This document shows positions 1,099-9,160 of a DNA stretch of 9,160 nt, one piece after another (within the stretch, counting starts at the first letter, position 1; each line of letters starts with the position of its first letter). The notes beneath the pieces were generated by a model, which was given only the letters and a program-made list of their open reading frames with translations, ran no database searches and was not told where the DNA came from. The DNA is taken from IMG/VR virus record IMGVR_UViG_2690316278_000005; one strand, 5' to 3'. The DNA is from a virus. Lineage: Duplodnaviria; Heunggongvirae; Uroviricota; Caudoviricetes. The position numbers and the translations under genes are program-made.

Positions 1099-1902
1099 AT
1101 GGCAACACCAAATCCCCTGGAGCCGGTAAAAGGTGCCGGTACCACTCTGTGGGTTTACAACGGCAAGGCTGATGCTTATGCAAACCCGTTGTCAGACGAT
1201 GACTGGCNNNNNNNNNNNNNNNNNNNNNNNNNNNNNNNNGACTGGCTAAGGTGAAGGATCTGACGCCGGGCGAGATGACGGCTGAATCCTATGATGATAA
1301 CTACCTGGATGATGAAGACGCGGACTGGAGCGCGACCGGGCAGGGGCAGAAATCTGCAGGTGATANNNNNNNNNNNNNNNNNNNNNNNNNNNNNNNNNNN
1401 NNNNNNNNNNNNNNNNNNNNNNNNNNNNNNNNNNNNNNNNNNNNNNNNNNNNNNNNNNNNNNNNNNNNNNNNNNNNNNNNCTATAAAATCCGTTTTCCGA
1501 ATGGCACGGTGGATGTGTTTCGTGGCTGGGTCAGCAGTATCGGTAAGGCCGTGACGGCGAAAGAAGTGATCACCCGCACGGNNNNNNNNNNNNNNNNNNN
1601 NNNNNNNNNNNNNNNNNNNNNNNNNNNNNNNNNNNNNNNNNNNNNNNNNNNNNNNNNNNNNNNNNNNNNNNNNNNNNNNNNNNNNNNNNNNNNNNNNNNN
1701 NNNNNNNNNNNNNNNNNNNNNNNNNNNNNNNNNNNNNNNNNNNNNNNNNNNNNNNNNNNNNNNNNNNNNNNNNNNNNNNNNNNNNNNNNNNNNNNNNNNN
1801 NNNNNNNNNNNNNNNNNNNNNNNNNNNNNNNNNNNNNNNNNNNNNNNNNNNNNNNNNNNNNNNNNNNNNNNNNNNNNNNNNNNNNNNNNNNNNNNNNNNN
1901 NN
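1099..1902 (+). CDS. V: Major tail tube protein V; 3' end is masked and the end coordinate is estimated
   Basis: ATG at 1099 with GAGGA SD upstream. N-terminus [36 protein letters not shown] matches lambda gpV, and the unmasked islands [41 protein letters not shown] (1242-1364) and [33 protein letters not shown] (1482-1581) also match. The frame before and after the 32-nt N run 1208-1239 differs (frame 1 then frame 3). End extrapolated from the lambda gpV length of 246 aa. Confidence 0.65.
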
Positions 1903-2975: not shown

Positions 2976-5587
2976 TCTTGTTATTGACCTGAGTCTGGAT
3001 GCTGTNNNNNNNNNNNNNNNNNNNNNNNNNNNNNNNNNNNNNNNNNNNNNNNNNNNNNNNNNNNNNNNNNNNNNNNNNNNNNNNNNNNNNNNNNNNNNNN
3101 NNNNNNNNNNNNNNNNNNNNNNNNNNNNNNNNNNNNNNNNNNNNNNNNNNNNNNNNNNNNNNNNNNNNNNNNNNNNNNNNNNNNNNNNNNNNNNNNNNNN
3201 NNNNNNNNNNNNNNNNNNNNNNNNNNNNNNNNNNNNNNNNNNNNNNNNNNNNNNNNNNNNNNNNNNNNNNNNNNNNNNNNNNNNNNNNNNNNNNNNNNNN
3301 NNNNNNNNNNNNNNNNNNNNNNNNNNNNNNNNNNNNNNNCATGTTCAGGGGGCTTGCCGATGCGATCACCCTGCCGATGGTCGGGGTCACCTCGCTGGCG
3401 GTGGCGACAGGTGCACTGGTGTACGCCTGGTACCAGGGAGATTCCACGCTTTCAGCGTTTAATAAAACCCTGGTTCTTTCCGGTAATCAGTCCGGACTGA
3501 CTGCCGATCGTATGCTGACTCTCTCAAGAGCCGGGCAGGCAGCAGGGCTGACGTTTAACCAGGCGAGAGAGTCACTGGCAGCCCTGGTGAATGCCGGTGT
3601 GCGTGGTGGTGAACAGTTTGATGCCATCAACCAGAGTGTCGCGCGTTTTGCGTCTGCATCCGGTGTGGAGGTGGATAAAGTCGCTGAAGCCTTCGGGAAG
3701 CTGACCACTGACCCGACGTCGGGACTGATGGCGATGGCGCGCCAGTTCCGTAACGTGACGGCAGAGCAGATTGCGTATGTTGCACAGCTGCAGCGTTCCG
3801 GAGACGAGGCCGGGGCATTGCAGGCGGCGAACGATATCGCCACGAAAGGCTTTGATGAGCAGACCCGTCGCCTGAAAGAAAACATGGGAACACTGGAGAC
3901 CTGGGCGGATAAAACAGGGAAGGCATTCAAATCGATGTGGGATGCCATTCTGGATATCGGTCGTCCGGAATCCTCAGCGGATATGCTCGCCAGTGCGCAG
4001 AAGGCATTTGATGAGGCGGATAAAAAATGGCAGTGGTACCAGAGTCGGAGCCAGCGCCGCGGTAAAACCTCCTCTTTCCGGGCCAACCTTCAGGGCGCAT
4101 GGGATGACCGGGAAAATGCCCGTCTGGGTCTGGCAGCGGCAACGCTGCAGTCGGATATGGAAAAAGCCGGTGAACTGGCGGCAAGGGACAGGGCTGAGCG
4201 TGAGTCGTCACAGCTGAAGTATACCGGAGAGGCGCAGAAGGCGTATGAGCGCCTGCTGACGCCACTGGAGAAATATACCGCCCGGCAGGAAGAGCTGAAT
4301 AAGGCCCTGAAAGACGGGAAAATCCTGCAGGCGGATTACAACACGCTGATGGCGTCGGCAAAAAAGGATTATGAGTCGACGCAGAAAAAGCCGTCCGGTG
4401 TGAAGGTGTCTGCCGGTGAGCGCCAGGAAGACCAGGCGCATGCAGCCCTGCTGGCGCTTGAAACTGAGCTCAGGACGCTGGAGAAGCACAGCGGTGCGAA
4501 TGAAAAAATCAGCCAGCAGCGCCGTGATTTATGGAAAGCGGAAAATCAGTATGTGGTCCTGAAAGAGGCCGCCACGAAACGGCAGTTATCTGAGCAGGAA
4601 AAATCCCTGCTGGCCCATGAGAAAGAAACGCTGGAGTACAAACGCCAGCTGGCTGAGCTGGGCGACAAGATTGAACACCAGAAACGGCTGAATGAGCTGG
4701 CACAGCAGGCGGCGCGGTTTGAACAGCAGCAGAGCGCGAAGCAGGCGGCAATCAGCGCAAAAGCCCGCGGACTCACCGACCGTCAGGCGCAGCGGGAGTC
4801 GGAAGAGCAGCGCCTTCGTGAGGTGTACGGTGATAATCCGGCTGCGCTGGCGAAGGCCACATCTGCACTGAAGAACACCTGGTCTGCGGAGGAGCAGCTT
4901 CGTGGAAGCTGGATGGCCGGGATGAAGTCCGGCTGGGGCGAGTGGGCGGAAAGTGCGACGGACAGTTTTTCGCAGGTTAAAAACGCGGCCACGCAGACCT
5001 TTGACGGTATTGCACAGAATATGGCAGCGATGCTGATCGGCAGCGAACAGAACTGGCGTGGTTTCACCCGTTCTGTGCTGTCCATGCTGACAGAGATTTT
5101 TCTGAAGCAGGCGATGGTGGGGATAGTCGGGAGTATCGGCAGCGCCATTGGCGGTGCTTTCGGTGGTGGTGCGTCTGCCTCCACGGGGACGGCCATTCAG
5201 GCTGCGGCGGCGAACTTCCATTTCGCGACCGGGGGATTTACGGGGACGGGGGGTAAATATGAACCTGCGGGGATTGTTCATCGCGGGGAGTTTGTCTTCA
5301 CGAAGGAGGCGACCAGCCGGATTGGTGTCGGCAATCTGTACCGCCTGATGCGGGGCTATGCGGAAGGTGGTTATGTCGGCGGTGCCGGAAGTCCGGCGCA
5401 GATGCGGCGGGCTGAAGGCATTAATTTTAATCAGAACAATCACGTGGTGATTCAGAACGACGGCCCCAACGGGCGGGCAGGGCCGCAGCTGATGAAAGCG
5501 GTGTATGAGATGGCCCGCAAGGGGGCACAGGATGAACTCCGGCTGCAGTTGCGTGATGGCGGTATGTTATCAGGGAGCGGTGGATGA
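2956..5587 (+). CDS. H: Tail tape measure protein H
   Basis: ATG at 2956 with strong SD GGGAGGTG upstream. N-terminus MSQPVGDLVIDLSLDA matches lambda gpH (MAEPVGDLVVDLSLDA). From 3341 a long ORF (MFRGLADAITLPMVGVTSLAVATGALVYAWYQ ... NQNNHVVIQNDG ... RDGGMLSGSGG then TGA at 5585-5587) is collinear with lambda gpH. The N-terminus (frame 1) and body (frame 2) are out of frame across the masked run 3006-3339. Overlaps the T end by 20 nt and the M start in an ATGA. Confidence 0.85.
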
Positions 5588-5913
5588 AAACCTTTCGCTG
5601 GAAAGTGAAGCCGGATATGGAGGTGAACTCGCAGCCATCGGTGCGTGAAGTGCGTTTTGGTGACGGGTACTCACAGCGTATGGCGGCAGGGCTGAATGCT
5701 GACCTGAAAACATACAGGGTGACGCTTTCCGTGACCCGGGAGGAGGCCCGGCATCTGGAAGCGTTCCTGGCAGAGCACGGTGGCTGGAAGGCATTTTTGT
5801 GGAAGCCACCCTATGCATACCGGCNNNNNNNNNNNNNNNNNNNNNNNNNNNNNNNNNNNNNNNNNNNNNNNNNNNNNNNNNNNNNNNNNNNNNNNNNNNN
5901 NNNNNNNNNNNNN
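5584..5913 (+). CDS. M: Minor tail protein M; 3' end is masked and the end is estimated
   Basis: MKTFRWKVKPDMEVNSQPSVREVRFGDGYSQRMAAGLNADLKTYRVTLSVTREEARHLEAFLAEHGGWKAFLWKPPYAYR matches the lambda gpM N-terminus. ATGA overlap with the H stop. End extrapolated from lambda gpM (109 aa). Confidence 0.8.
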
Positions 5914-6611
5914 NNNNNNNNNNNNNNNNNNNNNNNNNNNNNNNNNNNNNNNNNNNNNNNNNNNNNNNNNNNNNNNNNNNNNNNNNNNNNNNNNNNNNNN
6001 NNNNNNNNNNNNNNNNNNNNNNNNNNNNNNNNNNNNNNNNNNNNNNNNNNNNNNNNNNNNNNNNNNNNNNNNNNNNNNNNNNNNNNNNNNNNNNNNNNNN
6101 NNNNNNNNNNNNNNNNNNNNNNNNNNNNNNNNNNNNNNNNNNNNNNNNNNNNNNNNNNNNNNNNNNNNNNNNNNNNNNNNNNNNNNNNNNNNNNNNNNNN
6201 NNNNNNNNNNNNNNNNNNNNNNNNNNNNNNNNNNNNNNNNNNNNNNNNNNNNNNNNNNNNNNNNNNNNNNNNNNNNNNNNNNNNNNNNNNNNNNNNNNNN
6301 NNNNNNNNNNNNNNNNNNNNNNNNNNNNNNNNNNNNNNNNNNNNNNNNNNNNNNNNNNNNNNNNNNNNNNNNNNNNNNNNNNNNNNNNNNNNNNNNNNNN
6401 NNNNNNNNNNNNNNNNNNNNNNNNNNNNNNNNNNNNNNNNNNNNNNNNNNNNNNNNNNNNNNNNNNNNNNNNNNNNNNNNNNNNNNNNNNNNNNNNNNNN
6501 NNNNNNNNNNNNNNNNNNNNNNNNNNNNNNNNNNNNNNNNNNNNNNNNNNNNNNNNNNNNNNNNNNNNNNNNNNNNNNNNNNNNNNNNNNNNNNNNNNNN
6601 NNNNNNNNNNN
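5913..6611 (+). CDS. L: Minor tail protein L, inferred from synteny only; lies entirely inside the masked run
   Basis: No readable sequence. In lambda, L (232 aa) follows M and precedes K, and the masked run 5825-7273 is long enough to hold it. Coordinates are a guess. Confidence 0.25.
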
Positions 6612-7069
6612 NNNNNNNNNNNNNNNNNNNNNNNNNNNNNNNNNNNNNNNNNNNNNNNNNNNNNNNNNNNNNNNNNNNNNNNNNNNNNNNNNNNNNNNNN
6701 NNNNNNNNNNNNNNNNNNNNNNNNNNNNNNNNNNNNNNNNNNNNNNNNNNNNNNNNNNNNNNNNNNNNNNNNNNNNNNNNNNNNNNNNNNNNNNNNNNNN
6801 NNNNNNNNNNNNNNNNNNNNNNNNNNNNNNNNNNNNNNNNNNNNNNNNNNNNNNNNNNNNNNNNNNNNNNNNNNNNNNNNNNNNNNNNNNNNNNNNNNNN
6901 NNNNNNNNNNNNNNNNNNNNNNNNNNNNNNNNNNNNNNNNNNNNNNNNNNNNNNNNNNNNNNNNNNNNNNNNNNNNNNNNNNNNNNNNNNNNNNNNNNNN
7001 NNNNNNNNNNNNNNNNNNNNNNNNNNNNNNNNNNNNNNNNNNNNNNNNNNNNNNNNNNNNNNNNNNNNN

Positions 7070-7669
7070 NNNNNNNNNNNNNNNNNNNNNNNNNNNNNNN
7101 NNNNNNNNNNNNNNNNNNNNNNNNNNNNNNNNNNNNNNNNNNNNNNNNNNNNNNNNNNNNNNNNNNNNNNNNNNNNNNNNNNNNNNNNNNNNNNNNNNNN
7201 NNNNNNNNNNNNNNNNNNNNNNNNNNNNNNNNNNNNNNNNNNNNNNNNNNNNNNNNNNNNNNNNNNNNNNNNNGGGGTGACGGACTGTTACACGCTGTTC
7301 CGGGATGCTTATCATCTGGCGGGGACTGAAATGCCGGATTTTCATCGCGAGGATGACTGGTGGCGCAACGGTCAGAACCTTTACCTGGACAATATGGCGG
7401 TCACCGGCTTTTACCGGGTGCCCCTGTCCTCTGCACAGGCGGGCGATATTCTGCTGTGCTGCTTTGGTGCTTCGGTACCGAACCATGCCGCCATTTACTG
7501 CGGCAACGGTGAGCTGCTTCACCATCTGCCTGAACAACTGAGTAAACGGGAGAGGTATTCCGAAAAATGGCAACGACGAACGCATTCAGTCTGGCGTCAC
7601 CGCCACTGGCACGCATCTGCCTTCACGGGGATTTACAACGATTTGGCCGCCGCCTCAGCCTGTATGTGA
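7070..7669 (+). CDS. K: Tail tip assembly protein K (NlpC/P60-type C-terminal domain); 5' end is masked and the start is estimated
   Basis: Readable from 7274: GVTDCYTLFRDAYHLAGTEMPDFHRE...GDILLCCFGASVPNHAAIYCGNGELLHHLPEQLSKRERYSEKWQRRTHSVWRHRHWHASAFTGIYNDLAAASACM then TGA at 7667-7669, matching the lambda gpK C-terminal half including the conserved Cys and His of the NlpC/P60 fold. Start extrapolated from lambda gpK (199 aa). Confidence 0.75.
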   Translation, partial: XXXXXXXXXXXXXXXXXXXXXXXXXXXXXXXXXXXXXXXXXXXXXXXXXXXXXXXXXXXXXXXXXXXXGVTDCYTLFRDAYHLAGTEMPDFHREDDWWRNGQNLYLDNMAVTGFYRVPLSSAQAGDILLCCFGASVPNHAAIYCGNGELLHHLPEQLSKRERYSEKWQRRTHSVWRHRHWHASAFTGIYNDLAAASACM

Positions 7670-8247
7670 ACACGGCAGCGGAAGCCATTCGCGCCCTGTC
7701 GATGCAGATGCCGGGCTTTCGCCGTCAGATGAACGAAGGCTGGTACCAGATACGTATTGCCGGTTATGACACGGCACCGGAGGCGGTGTACGCCCGTCTT
7801 CACGAACAGCTGGGTGAGGGAACGGTCATCCACATTGTGCCGCGACTGGCCGGGGCCGGAAAGGGTGGACTGCAGATTGTGCTGGGGGCGGCAGCCATCG
7901 TGGGCTCTTTCTTCACTGCCGGGGCATCAATGGCGTTATGGGGTTCAGCCCTGGCAGCCGGTGGTTTTTCTGCCACCACGATGCTGTTTTCACTTGGAGC
8001 CAGCATGATTCTGGGCGGTGTGGCCCAGATGCTGGCCCCGAAGGCAAAAACACCGGATTACCGCGCAACGGATAACGGCAGACAGAACACGTACTTTTCC
8101 TCACTGGATAACATGATTGCCCAGGGGAACCCGATGCCGGTGCCTTACGGGGAAATGCTGGTTGGCTCCCGCCGTATATCCCAGGACATCAGCACCCGTG
8201 ATGAAGGCGGGGGCGGAAAGGTCGTGGTTATCGGGCGGCAGGGGTAA
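7567..8247 (+). CDS. I: Tail tip assembly protein I
   Basis: 226-aa ORF, MATTNAFSLASPPLARICLHGDLQRFGRRLSLYVNTAAEAIRAL...GEMLVGSRRISQDISTRDEGGGGKVVVIGRQG then TAA at 8245-8247, matching lambda gpI. SD GAGAGG upstream. Overlaps the K 3' end by 103 nt, as in lambda. Confidence 0.9.
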   Translation: MATTNAFSLASPPLARICLHGDLQRFGRRLSLYVNTAAEAIRALSMQMPGFRRQMNEGWYQIRIAGYDTAPEAVYARLHEQLGEGTVIHIVPRLAGAGKGGLQIVLGAAAIVGSFFTAGASMALWGSALAAGGFSATTMLFSLGASMILGGVAQMLAPKAKTPDYRATDNGRQNTYFSSLDNMIAQGNPMPVPYGEMLVGSRRISQDISTRDEGGGGKVVVIGRQG

Positions 8248-8253
8248 AAAGAA

Positions 8254-8292
8254 TAAAAAAATCCCGCAGTGATCGCGGACAGGAACTGCGGG
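8254..8292 (-). terminator. Rho-independent terminator for a minus-strand transcript
   Basis: Inverted repeat CCCGCAGT (8263-8270) and ACTGCGGG (8285-8292). On the minus strand the stem is followed immediately by AUUUUUUUAUUCUUUUU (plus 8262 down to 8246). There is no T-run after the stem on the plus strand, so it is unidirectional. Confidence 0.6.
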
Positions 8293-8351
8293 AGAGTTAC
8301 GAAGATTAAGTGTAAGGAATTATTCTTATATCACGACAAAAAAATTAACGC
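8254..8351 (-). ncRNA. Candidate small non-coding RNA of about 95-100 nt (unnamed), running from the predicted start site near 8350 to the intrinsic terminator
   Basis: Bounded by the minus-strand promoter at 8358-8385 and the terminator at 8254-8292. Contains no ATG and no plausible ORF (the only start-like codon is GTG-ATA-TAA). AT-rich body with a CU-rich stretch UUCCUUACACUUAAUCUUCG. Prediction from sequence signals only. Confidence 0.4.
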
Positions 8352-8357
8352 AGAGAA

Positions 8358-8385
8358 ATTATACGCGCCACAGTCAGTTTGTGAA
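8358..8385 (-). promoter_or_regulatory. Sigma70-type promoter on the minus strand: -35 TTCACA, 16-bp spacer, -10 TATAAT
   Basis: Minus-strand sequence TTCACA aactgactgtggcgcg TATAAT; 11 of 12 consensus positions with a near-optimal spacer and AT-rich sequence upstream of the -35. Predicted start about 7 nt downstream, near plus coordinate 8350. Confidence 0.45.
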
Positions 8386-8451
8386 AATGTGAAGATATTC
8401 AGAATTTTTATGCCATTACCGGTTTTAACCAACAGGATTATCGGTGGGCAT

Positions 8452-8492
8452 GAAAGAAAACCCCGGTATCTGCTGATACCGGGGTTTCTCTT
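8452..8492. terminator. Bidirectional Rho-independent terminator
   Basis: Perfect 9-bp inverted repeat CCCCGGTAT (8461-8469), 6-nt loop CTGCTG, ATACCGGGG (8476-8484), extendable by A-T pairs. Flanked by TTTCTCTTT on the plus strand and by TTTTCTTTC on the minus strand (complement of GAAAGAAAA at 8452-8460). Confidence 0.6.
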
Positions 8493-8590
8493 TAGCATGG
8501 CAGAAATGTGTTTCATGCTTTTCGGGCGAAGGATATCCGACTTCTGTACGGAATGGCAAGTGGCGGTTAATTTATTCAGGGGAAGGCTGT

Positions 8591-9160
8591 ATGGGAAAAG
8601 GTGGCGGTAAGGCACACACGCCTCGTGAGGCGAAGGATAATCTCAAATCCACGCAGATGATGAGCGTGATTGATGCGATTGGTGAGGGACTGATAGAAGG
8701 TCCGGTGAAGGGACTGCAGAGTATCCTGGTGAACAAAACCCCGCTGACGGACACGGACGGTAATCCCGTGATACACGGTGTGACGGCGGTCTGACGCGCC
8801 GGGGAGCAGGAGCAGACACCACCGGAAGGCTTTGAGTCCTCCGGTGCTGAAACCGGACTGGGCGTGGAAGTGACGAAGGCAAAACCGGTGACGCGCACCA
8901 TTACGTCCGCGAACATTGACCGCCTGCGGGTTACCTTCGGGGTGCAGTCACTGGTGCAGACCACGTCAAAGGGTGACCGAAACCCGACATCCGTCCGCCT
9001 GCTGATTCAGTTACAGCGTAACGGTAACTGGGTGACAGAAAAGGATGTCACCATTAACGGCAAGACCACCTCGCAGTTTCTGGCGTCGGTGATTCTGGAT
9101 AATCTGCCTCCCCGTCCTTTTAACATCCGGATGGTCCGGGAGACAGCGGACAGCACCACG
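8591..9160 (+). pseudogene. J: Tail tip / host specificity protein J, 5' portion, interrupted by an in-frame TGA at 8792-8794 (codon 68); J homology continues in the same frame to the window end
   Basis: ATG at 8591 with SD GGGGAAGG upstream. MGKGGGKAHTPREAKDNLKSTQMMSVIDAIGEGLIEGPVKGLQSILVNKTPLTDTDGNPVIHGVTAV then TGA, then in frame RAGEQEQTPPEGFESSGAETGLGVEVTKAKPVTRTITSANIDRLRVTFGVQSLVQTTSKGDRNPTSVRLLIQLQRNGNWVTEKDVTINGKTTSQFLASVILDNLPPRPFNIRMVRETADSTT. This is collinear with lambda gpJ residues 1 to about 190; lambda has Phe at the TGA position. Confidence 0.75.

What the first reader, a model, noticed from the sequence alone, without database searches (positions are those of the whole stretch)
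8246..8492. Self-contained minus-strand small-RNA cassette inserted between tail genes I and J
From memory, lambda I and J are only about 60 bp apart; here the gap is 343 bp and AT-rich against GC-rich tail genes. On the strand opposite to the late operon the gap contains, in order, a bidirectional terminator (8452-8492), a near-consensus sigma70 promoter (TTCACA-16-TATAAT, 8358-8385), about 95 nt with no ORF, and a strong intrinsic terminator (8254-8292). That is the architecture of an autonomously transcribed, Hfq-type regulatory sRNA moron. I cannot match it to any sRNA I can recall by sequence (for example it is not DicF-like), so it may be undescribed.
Basis: partly seen in the sequence, partly recalled or inferred. 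Interest (0 to 1): 0.68.

Follow-up and report, generated by a model that had tools for sequence, protein, structure and literature searches.

The report
Known prophage small RNA, unnamed variant
The gap between tail genes I and J holds a small regulatory RNA gene with its own promoter and terminator, belonging to the already described PasB/EcOnc22-24 prophage family, but as a common, divergent variant that genome annotation and the published survey both miss.

Summary
On the minus strand of the 343-bp I-J gap lie a TTCACA-16-TATAAT promoter (8385-8358), about 97 nt without an ORF, and a 7-bp GC-rich hairpin followed by U7 (8292-8255).

The element is not undescribed. It is homologous in position and sequence to PasB of EPEC E2348/69 (83 nt, seen on Northern blot, Hfq-dependent, with RIL-seq partners). 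It is also homologous to EcOnc22/23/24 of EHEC Sakai (about 85 nt, Hfq-CRAC, destabilised without hfq). Both sit in the same I-J gap, antisense to the tail operon. Rfam has no model for the family, and RefSeq annotates nothing there.

The window carries a distinct "W" allele:
- The promoter is about 95% identical to PasB and the last 25 nt of the terminator are identical, but the 45-nt body is only about 60% identical.
- The body is a sharp divergence island between near-identical flanks: I gene 98%, right-hand spacer 100%.
- W-type alleles occur in roughly 1,240 RefSeq complete E. coli records.
- The published PasB search settings do not find this allele.

The upstream hairpin at 8452-8493 is real. 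It reassorts independently of the sRNA, and lambda has its own hairpin at that position, so it probably belongs to the tail operon.

The most likely function is an Hfq-dependent, trans-acting, base-pairing sRNA made by the lysogen. Its seed and targets are unproven.

The parts
8255..8351 (-). Predicted primary transcript of the pasB-family sRNA, W allele, 97 nt, from G8351 to the end of the U7 tail.
   Evidence: The start is 7 nt downstream of the -10 (sequence). The stretch aligns with E2348/69 PasB and Sakai EcOnc22-24. It has no ORF. It is 100% identical in 613 RefSeq records.
8255..8338 (-). Stretch equivalent to the published 83-nt PasB (NC_011601.1 1466343..1466261).
   Evidence: Coordinates come from Table S6 of PMC8550237, placed on the alignments (65 of 89 aligned columns identical).
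8358..8363 (-). -10 hexamer TATAAT.
   Evidence: The ATAAT core is kept in all alleles, as TATAAT, AATAAT or GATAAT, and in the distant homologues except WGPS8, which has TATCAT.
8380..8385 (-). -35 hexamer TTCACA, the second copy of a TTCACA-TT-TTCACA direct repeat (first copy 8388-8393).
   Evidence: This hexamer is kept in W and E alleles but not in the Sakai-type or WGPS8 alleles. The upstream copy is invariant.
8386..8411 (-). Conserved A/T-rich block upstream of the promoter (ATAAAAATTCTGAATATCTTCACATT). It may be an UP element or a regulator site.
   Evidence: It is conserved in all six distant homologues and marks the right-hand limit of the module shared with Stx1a and Stx2c phages, window 8256-8411.
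8300..8321 (-). Conserved, single-stranded, CU-rich core (AAUUCCUUACACUUAAUCUUCG). This is the candidate seed.
   Evidence: The consensus AAYUCC.U....UURAUCUUCRU is kept across alleles and is unpaired in the consensus fold. In E2348/69 PasB, the best predicted duplexes for 4 of 6 RIL-seq partners fall in this region, but they are no better than shuffled controls.
8255..8292 (-). Intrinsic terminator and likely Hfq-binding module: stem CCCGCAG/CTGCGGG, a 16-nt loop, and a U7 tail.
   Evidence: The stem is invariant in 16 diverse alleles while the loop varies from 4 to 17 nt. The PasB Northern probe AATCCCGCAGTGATCGCGGA matches plus-strand 8260-8279 at 20 of 20 positions.
8452..8493 (.). Strong hairpin (CCCCGGTATC-TGCT-GATACCGGGG, extended by A/T pairs) between the sRNA promoter and J. 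It is probably part of the tail-operon junction or an insulator, not of the sRNA gene.
   Evidence: It reassorts independently of the sRNA allele. Counterpart hairpins exist in lambda and in E-type gaps, where they show a compensatory change.
8412..8590 (.). W-type right-hand spacer, about 100 bp longer than the E2348/69 type.
   Evidence: At least 99% identical in 1442 of 1451 matching RefSeq records. 100% identical in PPompW phages, which carry the other sRNA body.

Best explanation
The element is a gene for a small regulatory RNA of the PasB/EcOnc22-24 family. It is carried as a moron (an extra, independently expressed insert) in the I-J gap of a lambdoid prophage and reads against the tail operon.

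Shown here: it has its own sigma-70-type promoter and an intrinsic terminator with a U7 tail. Both are conserved across many alleles and are shared with homologues that have been detected experimentally.

Inferred by homology: the lysogen transcribes an RNA of about 84-97 nt. Hfq stabilises it, through the terminator hairpin with its U-tail and through U-rich stretches. It acts in trans by base-pairing with host and accessory mRNAs.

Inferred from conservation only: the pairing region is the unstructured CU-rich core at 8300-8321.

Shown here: the window carries a W allele whose body is about 40% different from the named PasB, although the promoter, the terminator and both flanks are nearly identical. 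Its target set is therefore likely to differ from that of E2348/69 PasB.
For: Position and sequence homology to PasB: same I-J gap and opposite strand in E2348/69 prophage PP6. The promoter is 56 of 60 identical and the last 25 nt are identical. The PasB Northern probe matches the window at 20 of 20 positions.

Homology to EcOnc22/23/24, which lie in the J-I gaps of Sakai Sp15, Sp14 and Sp11.

Experimental evidence on the homologues:
- PasB: Northern blot, Hfq-dependent stability, 37 RIL-seq interactions, log2 fold change of -6.8 in the wild-type versus hfq-mutant comparison.
- EcOnc22: about 85 nt on Northern blot, destabilised without hfq, high Hfq-CRAC read counts.

Conservation: 151 copies and 43 alleles from IMG/VR keep the -10, the leader, the core, the stem and the U-tail. 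So do homologues at about 71% identity. The consensus structure is an unstructured 5' region followed by the terminator.

Moron signature: GC 0.42 against 0.58-0.60 in the flanking genes, and lambda lacks the insert.

No protein reading: no ORF in the transcript, and no Pfam or PHROG hit for the ORFs spanning the gap.
Against: There are no expression, Hfq-binding or target data for this allele or this strain.

No phenotype or validated target has been published for PasB or EcOnc22-24. The evidence is chimeras and blots only, and a 2021 review lists the function as unknown.

Predicted duplexes with six RIL-seq partners are no better than shuffled controls, so the seed is unproven.

The reported sizes of 83-85 nt are shorter than the 97 nt predicted from the -10. 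Either the RNA is processed, or the 5' end, which was called from read coverage, is imprecise.

The terminator stem never varies, so it gives no covariation support.
Confidence: 0.82

Rival explanations
1. It acts in cis on the tail operon. As a convergent, perfectly complementary antisense RNA or transcription unit, it would damp or process the I-J part of the late mRNA, by RNase III cleavage or transcriptional interference. Or it would silence stray tail-gene transcription in the lysogen.
For: It is fully complementary to the late transcript by position. It always sits in the same gap and the same orientation, in every prophage examined.
Against: The transcript overlaps neither the I coding region nor the J ribosome-binding site, which is about 240 nt away here. 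Lambda assembles tails without it. The body is the least conserved part of the region. A cis-antisense RNA stays complementary to its target however the sequence changes, so this reading does not explain why the CU-rich core is conserved. The homologues form Hfq-dependent chimeras with unlinked mRNAs.
Confidence: 0.08
2. It is an anti-sRNA or sponge, like AgvB and AsxR. Its main partners would be other sRNAs rather than mRNAs, with the variable body setting which sRNA is titrated.
For: The layout of a variable body with a conserved terminator module resembles that of the anti-sRNAs. One PasB RIL-seq chimera is with the pasA-region RNA.
Against: Seven of the eight PasB partners seen in the activating condition are coding-region or 5'-region mRNAs. 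There is no match to the Rfam AgvB or AsxR models. It is longer (84-97 nt against 51-60) and sits at a different prophage site.
Confidence: 0.07
3. It is a decaying or chance promoter-terminator pair in a spacer, with no function. Or it is a small protein-coding insert read in another frame.
For: Motif counts in the window alone are not significant. The host prophage is damaged, with a nonsense codon in J. Two phage records call small ORFs on the opposite strand.
Against: The promoter, core, stem and U-tail are conserved over 43 alleles and about 1,400 genomes. The homologues are abundant Hfq-bound RNAs. There is no ORF in the transcript, and no Pfam or PHROG hit at E below 0.09 for ORFs spanning the gap.
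Confidence: 0.03

Closest known systems
PasB (pathogenicity-associated sRNA B) of EPEC O127:H6 E2348/69; Pearl Mizrahi et al. 2021 (PMC8550237); surveyed by Zhu, Shabalina and Storz 2026 (bioRxiv 10.64898/2026.05.13.724894)
   Same: Same I-J gap and same antisense orientation. The promoter is 93-95% identical. The leader GCGTTA and the U-run are shared, as is the core TCCTT..A..TT.ATCTTC. The last 25 nt (terminator 3' arm plus U7) are identical.
   Different: The body is only 58-60% identical. The terminator loop is 5 nt longer. The right-hand spacer is unrelated and about 100 bp longer. A blastn search with the published settings (word size 28, query coverage above 75%) gives no hit, so this allele lies outside the described PasB variants, which differ by only a few nucleotides.
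EcOnc22/EcOnc23/EcOnc24 of EHEC O157:H7 Sakai (prophages Sp15, Sp14, Sp11); Tree et al. 2014 (PMC4104026)
   Same: Same gap between the host-specificity (J) and tail-assembly (I) genes, on the opposite strand. The core, the stem CCCGCAG/CTGCGGG and the U7 tail are the same. About 85 nt and Hfq-dependent.
   Different: About 71% identity to the window. The -35 hexamer is not conserved. The -10 is AATAAT. The gap is of the E type. The published coordinates fit the sRNA only after a shift of about +119 to +124 nt, which I attribute to the newer RefSeq version being longer (the old length is from memory). The probe shares 23 nt exactly with the sRNA body.
AgvB/AsxR anti-sRNAs (Rfam RF02702, RF02703)
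   Same: They are also sRNA inserts in prophages, expressed from their own promoters, with a conserved terminator module and a variable target-recognition part.
   Different: They lie downstream of PR'/stx, are 51-60 nt long and show no sequence similarity. There is no Rfam hit in the window.
DicF (Qin prophage sRNA that represses ftsZ)
   Same: It is a prophage-encoded Hfq-dependent sRNA. PasB's most enriched RIL-seq partner in the activating condition is a fragment spanning the ftsA-ftsZ junction and the ftsZ start codon.
   Different: There is no sequence or model match. No convincing PasB-ftsZ duplex was predicted, with a z-score near 0.
Phage lambda I-J junction
   Same: The same two genes, with a hairpin followed by a T-run just ahead of J.
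   Different: The gap is 60 bp and has no sRNA cassette.

Membership tests
PasB / EcOnc22-24 prophage sRNA family | Encoded in the intergenic gap between tail genes I and J of a lambdoid prophage, antisense to the tail operon. | tested here: met
   Window: I ends at 8247, J starts at 8591, and the element is on the minus strand. The arrangement is the same in E2348/69 and in Sakai Sp11, Sp14 and Sp15.
PasB / EcOnc22-24 prophage sRNA family | Sequence homology to PasB over the promoter, leader, core motif and terminator. | tested here: met
   65 of 89 aligned columns are identical over the 83-nt RNA. The last 25 nt are identical and the promoter is 93-95% identical. It aligns with 43 alleles.
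PasB / EcOnc22-24 prophage sRNA family | A transcript of about 83-85 nt whose stability depends on Hfq. | not testable with these tools
   Known only for the homologues.
PasB as delimited in the 2026 survey | Retrievable with the E2348/69 PasB query by blastn at word size 28 with query coverage above 75%. | tested here: not met
   No hit at word size 28. At word size 11 only 25 nt align, 30% query coverage.
Hfq-dependent base-pairing sRNA | An intrinsic terminator hairpin followed by at least six U, with U-rich or AU-rich single-stranded sequence upstream. | tested here: met
   A 7-bp GC-rich stem with a U7 tail, an unstructured CU/AU-rich 5' region, and a U7 run near the 5' end.
Hfq-dependent base-pairing sRNA | A seed that pairs with defined target RNAs. 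| tested here: inconclusive
   The best duplexes of E2348/69 PasB with 4 of 6 RIL-seq partners fall in the conserved core. Their energies are no better than shuffled controls: summed z -1.4 for PasB and -0.7 for the window allele.
Phage moron | Extra DNA between conserved genes, with its own promoter and terminator and a different base composition, absent from related phages. | tested here: met
   A 343-bp gap against 60 bp in lambda. GC 0.42 against 0.58-0.60. Promoter and terminator present.
AgvB/AsxR anti-sRNAs, DicF, and all other Rfam families | A match to the family covariance model at its gathering score. | tested here: not met
   No match at gathering score in the window or in the unmasked SK1144 locus. 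In the E-value search (up to 10), every match scored under 20 bits, far below its family's gathering score.

The most novel reading that the evidence does not exclude
The I-J gap would be an exchangeable 'seed cassette'. A conserved promoter arm and a conserved terminator arm let prophages swap a roughly 60-90-nt sRNA body by recombination. At least three body types exist (W, E/PasB and Sakai-type). E. coli lineages would then carry PasB-family sRNAs with different target sets. On this reading, the W allele is a functionally distinct regulator that has not been studied. It is the commonest type in my sample and is present in ExPEC, commensal, laboratory and STEC strains. In addition, the W-type right-hand spacer might encode a second minus-strand RNA of about 75 nt (8523 to 8445) that ends at the 8452-8493 hairpin.
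Probability: 0.3. Interest if true: 0.5.

Novelty: new member of a known kind. Interest (0 to 1): 0.3.

Why it matters

The useful additions are practical:
- The family has no Rfam model, and nothing is annotated under any listed RefSeq match, although matches occur in about 1,400 complete E. coli genomes.
- The only published survey fixed its search on the E2348/69 sequence. It therefore missed a body variant that is at least as common, and it concluded that PasB is the least variable Pas sRNA. Here the body is the most divergent stretch of the whole tail-tip region.
- If the variable body sets target choice, strains that look alike in their prophage content differ in an Hfq-dependent regulator.
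- The identical allele in ATCC 25922 makes this easy to test.

Tried and rejected
- **Rfam:** nothing at gathering score in the window or in the unmasked SK1144 locus. With the E-value threshold, only terminator-like matches under 20 bits appeared, such as STnc310 and CopA. I treated these as chance.
- **Other recently described prophage sRNAs:** all ruled out. svsR lies at the 3' end of cI. HnrS is EcOnc10-12, 66 nt. AgvB and AsxR lie downstream of PR'.
- **Protein-coding reading:** the three ORFs spanning the gap have no Pfam hit and only weak PHROG matches, at E of 0.09 or above.
- **Covariation:** the terminator stem is invariant and no conserved 5' structure was found, so structure statistics add nothing.
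- **Target and seed prediction:** plain duplexfold gave meaningless structures with very large loops. A windowed version placed several PasB sites in the conserved core, but it did not beat shuffled controls.
- **Species range:** my gapped pattern for the genome-contig scan was too loose. Only E. albertii and two likely contaminant contigs were real copies.
- **Literature search by sequence:** no paper in the searchable library holds the W-allele sequence in its main text.
- **RIL-seq partners in the non-activating condition:** I did not find this list in the stored supplement.

Full report
**What is in the sequence.** Gene I ends at 8247 and J starts at 8591, so the gap is 343 bp. Lambda's gap is 60 bp. 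The gap has a GC content of 0.417, against 0.601 for I and 0.575 for J.

On the minus strand the consensus scan finds TTCACA-16-TATAAT at 8385-8358, matching 11 of 12 positions. G8351 lies 7 nt after the -10. From there, 97 nt run to a hairpin, CCCGCAG (8292-8286) paired with CTGCGGG (8269-8263), followed by U7 at 8261-8255. The hairpin has a predicted dG of -15.7 kcal/mol, and the stretch holds no ORF. The upstream hairpin at 8452-8493 is real and very stable, with dG of -26 to -30 kcal/mol. Motif counts within this window alone are not significant. The evidence that the features matter comes from comparison with other sequences.

**Identity.** Rfam has no match, either at gathering scores or as a meaningful sub-threshold match. 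BLAST finds the gap in 1,662 of 5,426 complete E. coli genomes, and no listed match has an RNA feature annotated under it.

The literature supplied the name. PasB of EPEC E2348/69 is an 83-nt sRNA at NC_011601.1 1466343..1466261, on the minus strand, in prophage PP6 (Table S6 of PMC8550237). That position is the I-J gap, on the opposite strand to the tail genes. Its Northern probe matches the window's plus strand at 8260-8279 in 20 of 20 positions. The alignment shows a nearly identical promoter, leader and terminator.

In EHEC Sakai, EcOnc22, EcOnc23 and EcOnc24 were found by Hfq-CRAC. EcOnc22 is about 85 nt on Northern blot and is destabilised without hfq (Tree et al. 2014). All three lie in the J-I gaps of prophages Sp15, Sp14 and Sp11, on the opposite strand, and they align with the window element. 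Their Northern probe shares 23 nt exactly with the Sakai sRNA body. The published coordinates fit the sRNA after a constant shift of about 119-124 nt. I attribute that shift to the newer, longer RefSeq version; the old record length is from memory.

PasB showed Hfq-dependent stability and 37 RIL-seq interactions. In the activating condition its partners include ler, perB, bfpB, bfpI, galE and a fragment spanning the ftsZ start. A 2021 review lists the function of EcOnc22-24 as unknown. The element is therefore a member of a described family. It is not svsR, HnrS, AgvB/AsxR or DicF.

**Conservation.** Two exact-pattern scans of IMG/VR returned 151 copies, which fall into 43 distinct alleles. 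The window's allele is the commonest, with 32 copies.

The following are kept in all alleles, and in BLAST-found homologues only about 71% identical:
- an upstream A/T-rich block containing the first TTCACA;
- the -10 core ATAAT (one distant homologue, WGPS8, has TATCAT);
- the leader GCGTTA and a U-run;
- a CU-rich core, AAYUCC.U....UURAUCUUCRU;
- the 7-bp stem and the U-tail.

The upstream block may therefore matter more than that hexamer.

The consensus fold of 16 diverse alleles contains only the terminator stem. The stem is invariant while its loop ranges from 4 to 17 nt. The 5' 60 nt are unstructured. This is the usual build of an Hfq-dependent sRNA, but it provides no covariation evidence.

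**What is new about this copy.** Against the named PasB, the window's RNA is 65 of 89 columns identical overall and only 58-60% identical in the body.

The comparison with phage PPompW_132418 is the clearest:

| Segment | Identity to window |
|---|---|
| I gene (7567-8247) | 98.1% |
| Terminator region (8255-8292) | 76% |
| sRNA body (8293-8337) | 60.4% |
| Promoter (8352-8411) | 95% |
| Right-hand spacer (8412-8590) | 100% |

The divergence is thus confined to an island of about 90 nt. The last 300 nt of I are mostly 95-99% identical to the window in both the W and the E groups.

Body type and right-hand spacer type occur in all four combinations: WW 45, EE 38, EW 29 and WE 20. The transcribed part therefore behaves as an exchangeable cassette between conserved arms.

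In RefSeq complete genomes:
- W-type: 613 records at 99% or above, 37 at 95-99%, and 588 at 90-95% (a W-like form in Stx phages of O157, O111, O145 and O55).
- E2348/69-type: 34 records at 99% or above, and 891 at 95-99%.

The 2026 survey searched with the E2348/69 sequence at word size 28 and required query coverage above 75%. With those settings the window gives no hit. This explains why that survey reports only a few nucleotide differences among PasB variants. I found no paper in the searchable library that carries the W sequence.

**The upstream hairpin.** It is not specific to the sRNA cassette. E-type gaps carry a different hairpin, CAGGCACC...GGTGCCTG followed by TTGTTTTTG on the plus strand, with a compensatory C-G to T-A change in some phages. 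Lambda, which has no sRNA here, has CCGCC-TGCG-GGCGG followed by TTTTGTCATTT at the same place. One IMG/VR copy has the W-type hairpin precisely deleted. Another has an IS3-family element inserted next to it.

The hairpin may shield the sRNA promoter from antisense read-through, and it may stop unmodified plus-strand transcription before J. I could not test either idea. A weak promoter-like site at 8559-8530 could produce a second minus-strand RNA ending at this hairpin. The spacer is at least 99% identical in 1,442 of the 1,451 matching records, so no comparative test is possible.

**Mechanism.** The promoter, the terminator and the homology to detected Hfq-bound RNAs are shown. That this allele is transcribed in the lysogen, is stabilised by Hfq and pairs in trans through the CU-rich core at 8300-8321 is inferred.

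Windowed duplex predictions placed the best sites of E2348/69 PasB for ler, galE, bfpB and perB in the conserved core. The energies were no better than shuffled controls: summed z of -1.4, with 4 of 40 shuffles as good. The window allele scored z of -0.7. The seed is therefore a hypothesis.

A cis-antisense role on the late mRNA cannot be excluded. It is disfavoured because the RNA overlaps neither the I coding region nor the J ribosome-binding site. It also does not explain the conserved core, since a cis-antisense RNA stays complementary to its target whatever the sequence.

**Verdict.** I file it as a new member, an unnamed divergent allele, of a known sRNA family. Interest is modest.

Noticed in passing
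window 8792-8794 and 8691: J carries an in-frame TGA (W68*), where SK1144, E2348/69 and PPompW have TGG, plus a P34L change. Homologous sequence continues in frame after the stop. J is therefore a pseudogene here and the prophage tail is probably defective, while the sRNA module is intact.
   Followed up: partly
window 1208-1239, 1366-1480, 1582-2083, 2290-2377, 3006-3339, 5825-7273: Runs of N (masked sequence). The very long overlapping 'ORFs' listed across these runs, for example 5584-7329 and 5570-7585, are artefacts. The masking also explains why the best whole-window BLAST match covers only 72%.
   Followed up: yes
window 8445-8559, minus strand: A weak promoter-like site (TTGCCA-18-TATCCT, 9 of 12 positions, 8559-8530) lies upstream of the strong hairpin and its UUUUCUUUC tail. 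Together they could give a second RNA of about 75 nt. The spacer is nearly invariant across matching genomes, so there is no comparative evidence either way.
   Followed up: partly
L160 (lambda NC_001416.1) 745-806; L153-L156, L162 I-J gaps: Lambda and the E-type prophages each have their own plus-strand hairpin followed by a T-run just ahead of J. The E-type hairpin shows a compensatory change (CAGGCAC/GTGCCTG against CAGGCAT/ATGCCTG). A structured element before J appears to be a conserved feature of the tail operon, of unknown role.
   Followed up: partly
L125 about 4790-6000 (also L142); L051: An IS3-family element (OrfA MNKKTKRTFTPEFRLE..., with a DDE OrfB) is inserted between the sRNA's upstream block and the W-type hairpin. 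In L051 the hairpin segment is precisely deleted.
   Followed up: partly
L233 (Streptomyces flavalbus, 3.4-kb contig), L202 (Parendozoicomonas haliclonae, 460-bp contig), L215 (E. albertii NBRC 107761): GTDB species-representative assemblies of unrelated taxa contain the E. coli prophage sRNA module on tiny contigs, which is probably contamination. E. albertii carries a W allele that differs from the window only at one position in the promoter spacer.
   Followed up: no
L155 1559-1657 (PhiR12_1, XSB41643.1); L156 1459-1611 (phage 1720a-02, AGR48338.1): The deposited phage annotations call small plus-strand 'hypothetical proteins' across the sRNA gene. These are probably gene-caller artefacts.
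   Followed up: no
L283 (E2348/69 111363-111505): The RIL-seq fragment of 'ftsZ' that ligates to PasB has the highest odds ratio among PasB's partners in the activating condition. It spans the ftsA-ftsZ junction and the ftsZ start codon, the region targeted by the prophage sRNA DicF. No convincing duplex was predicted.
   Followed up: partly
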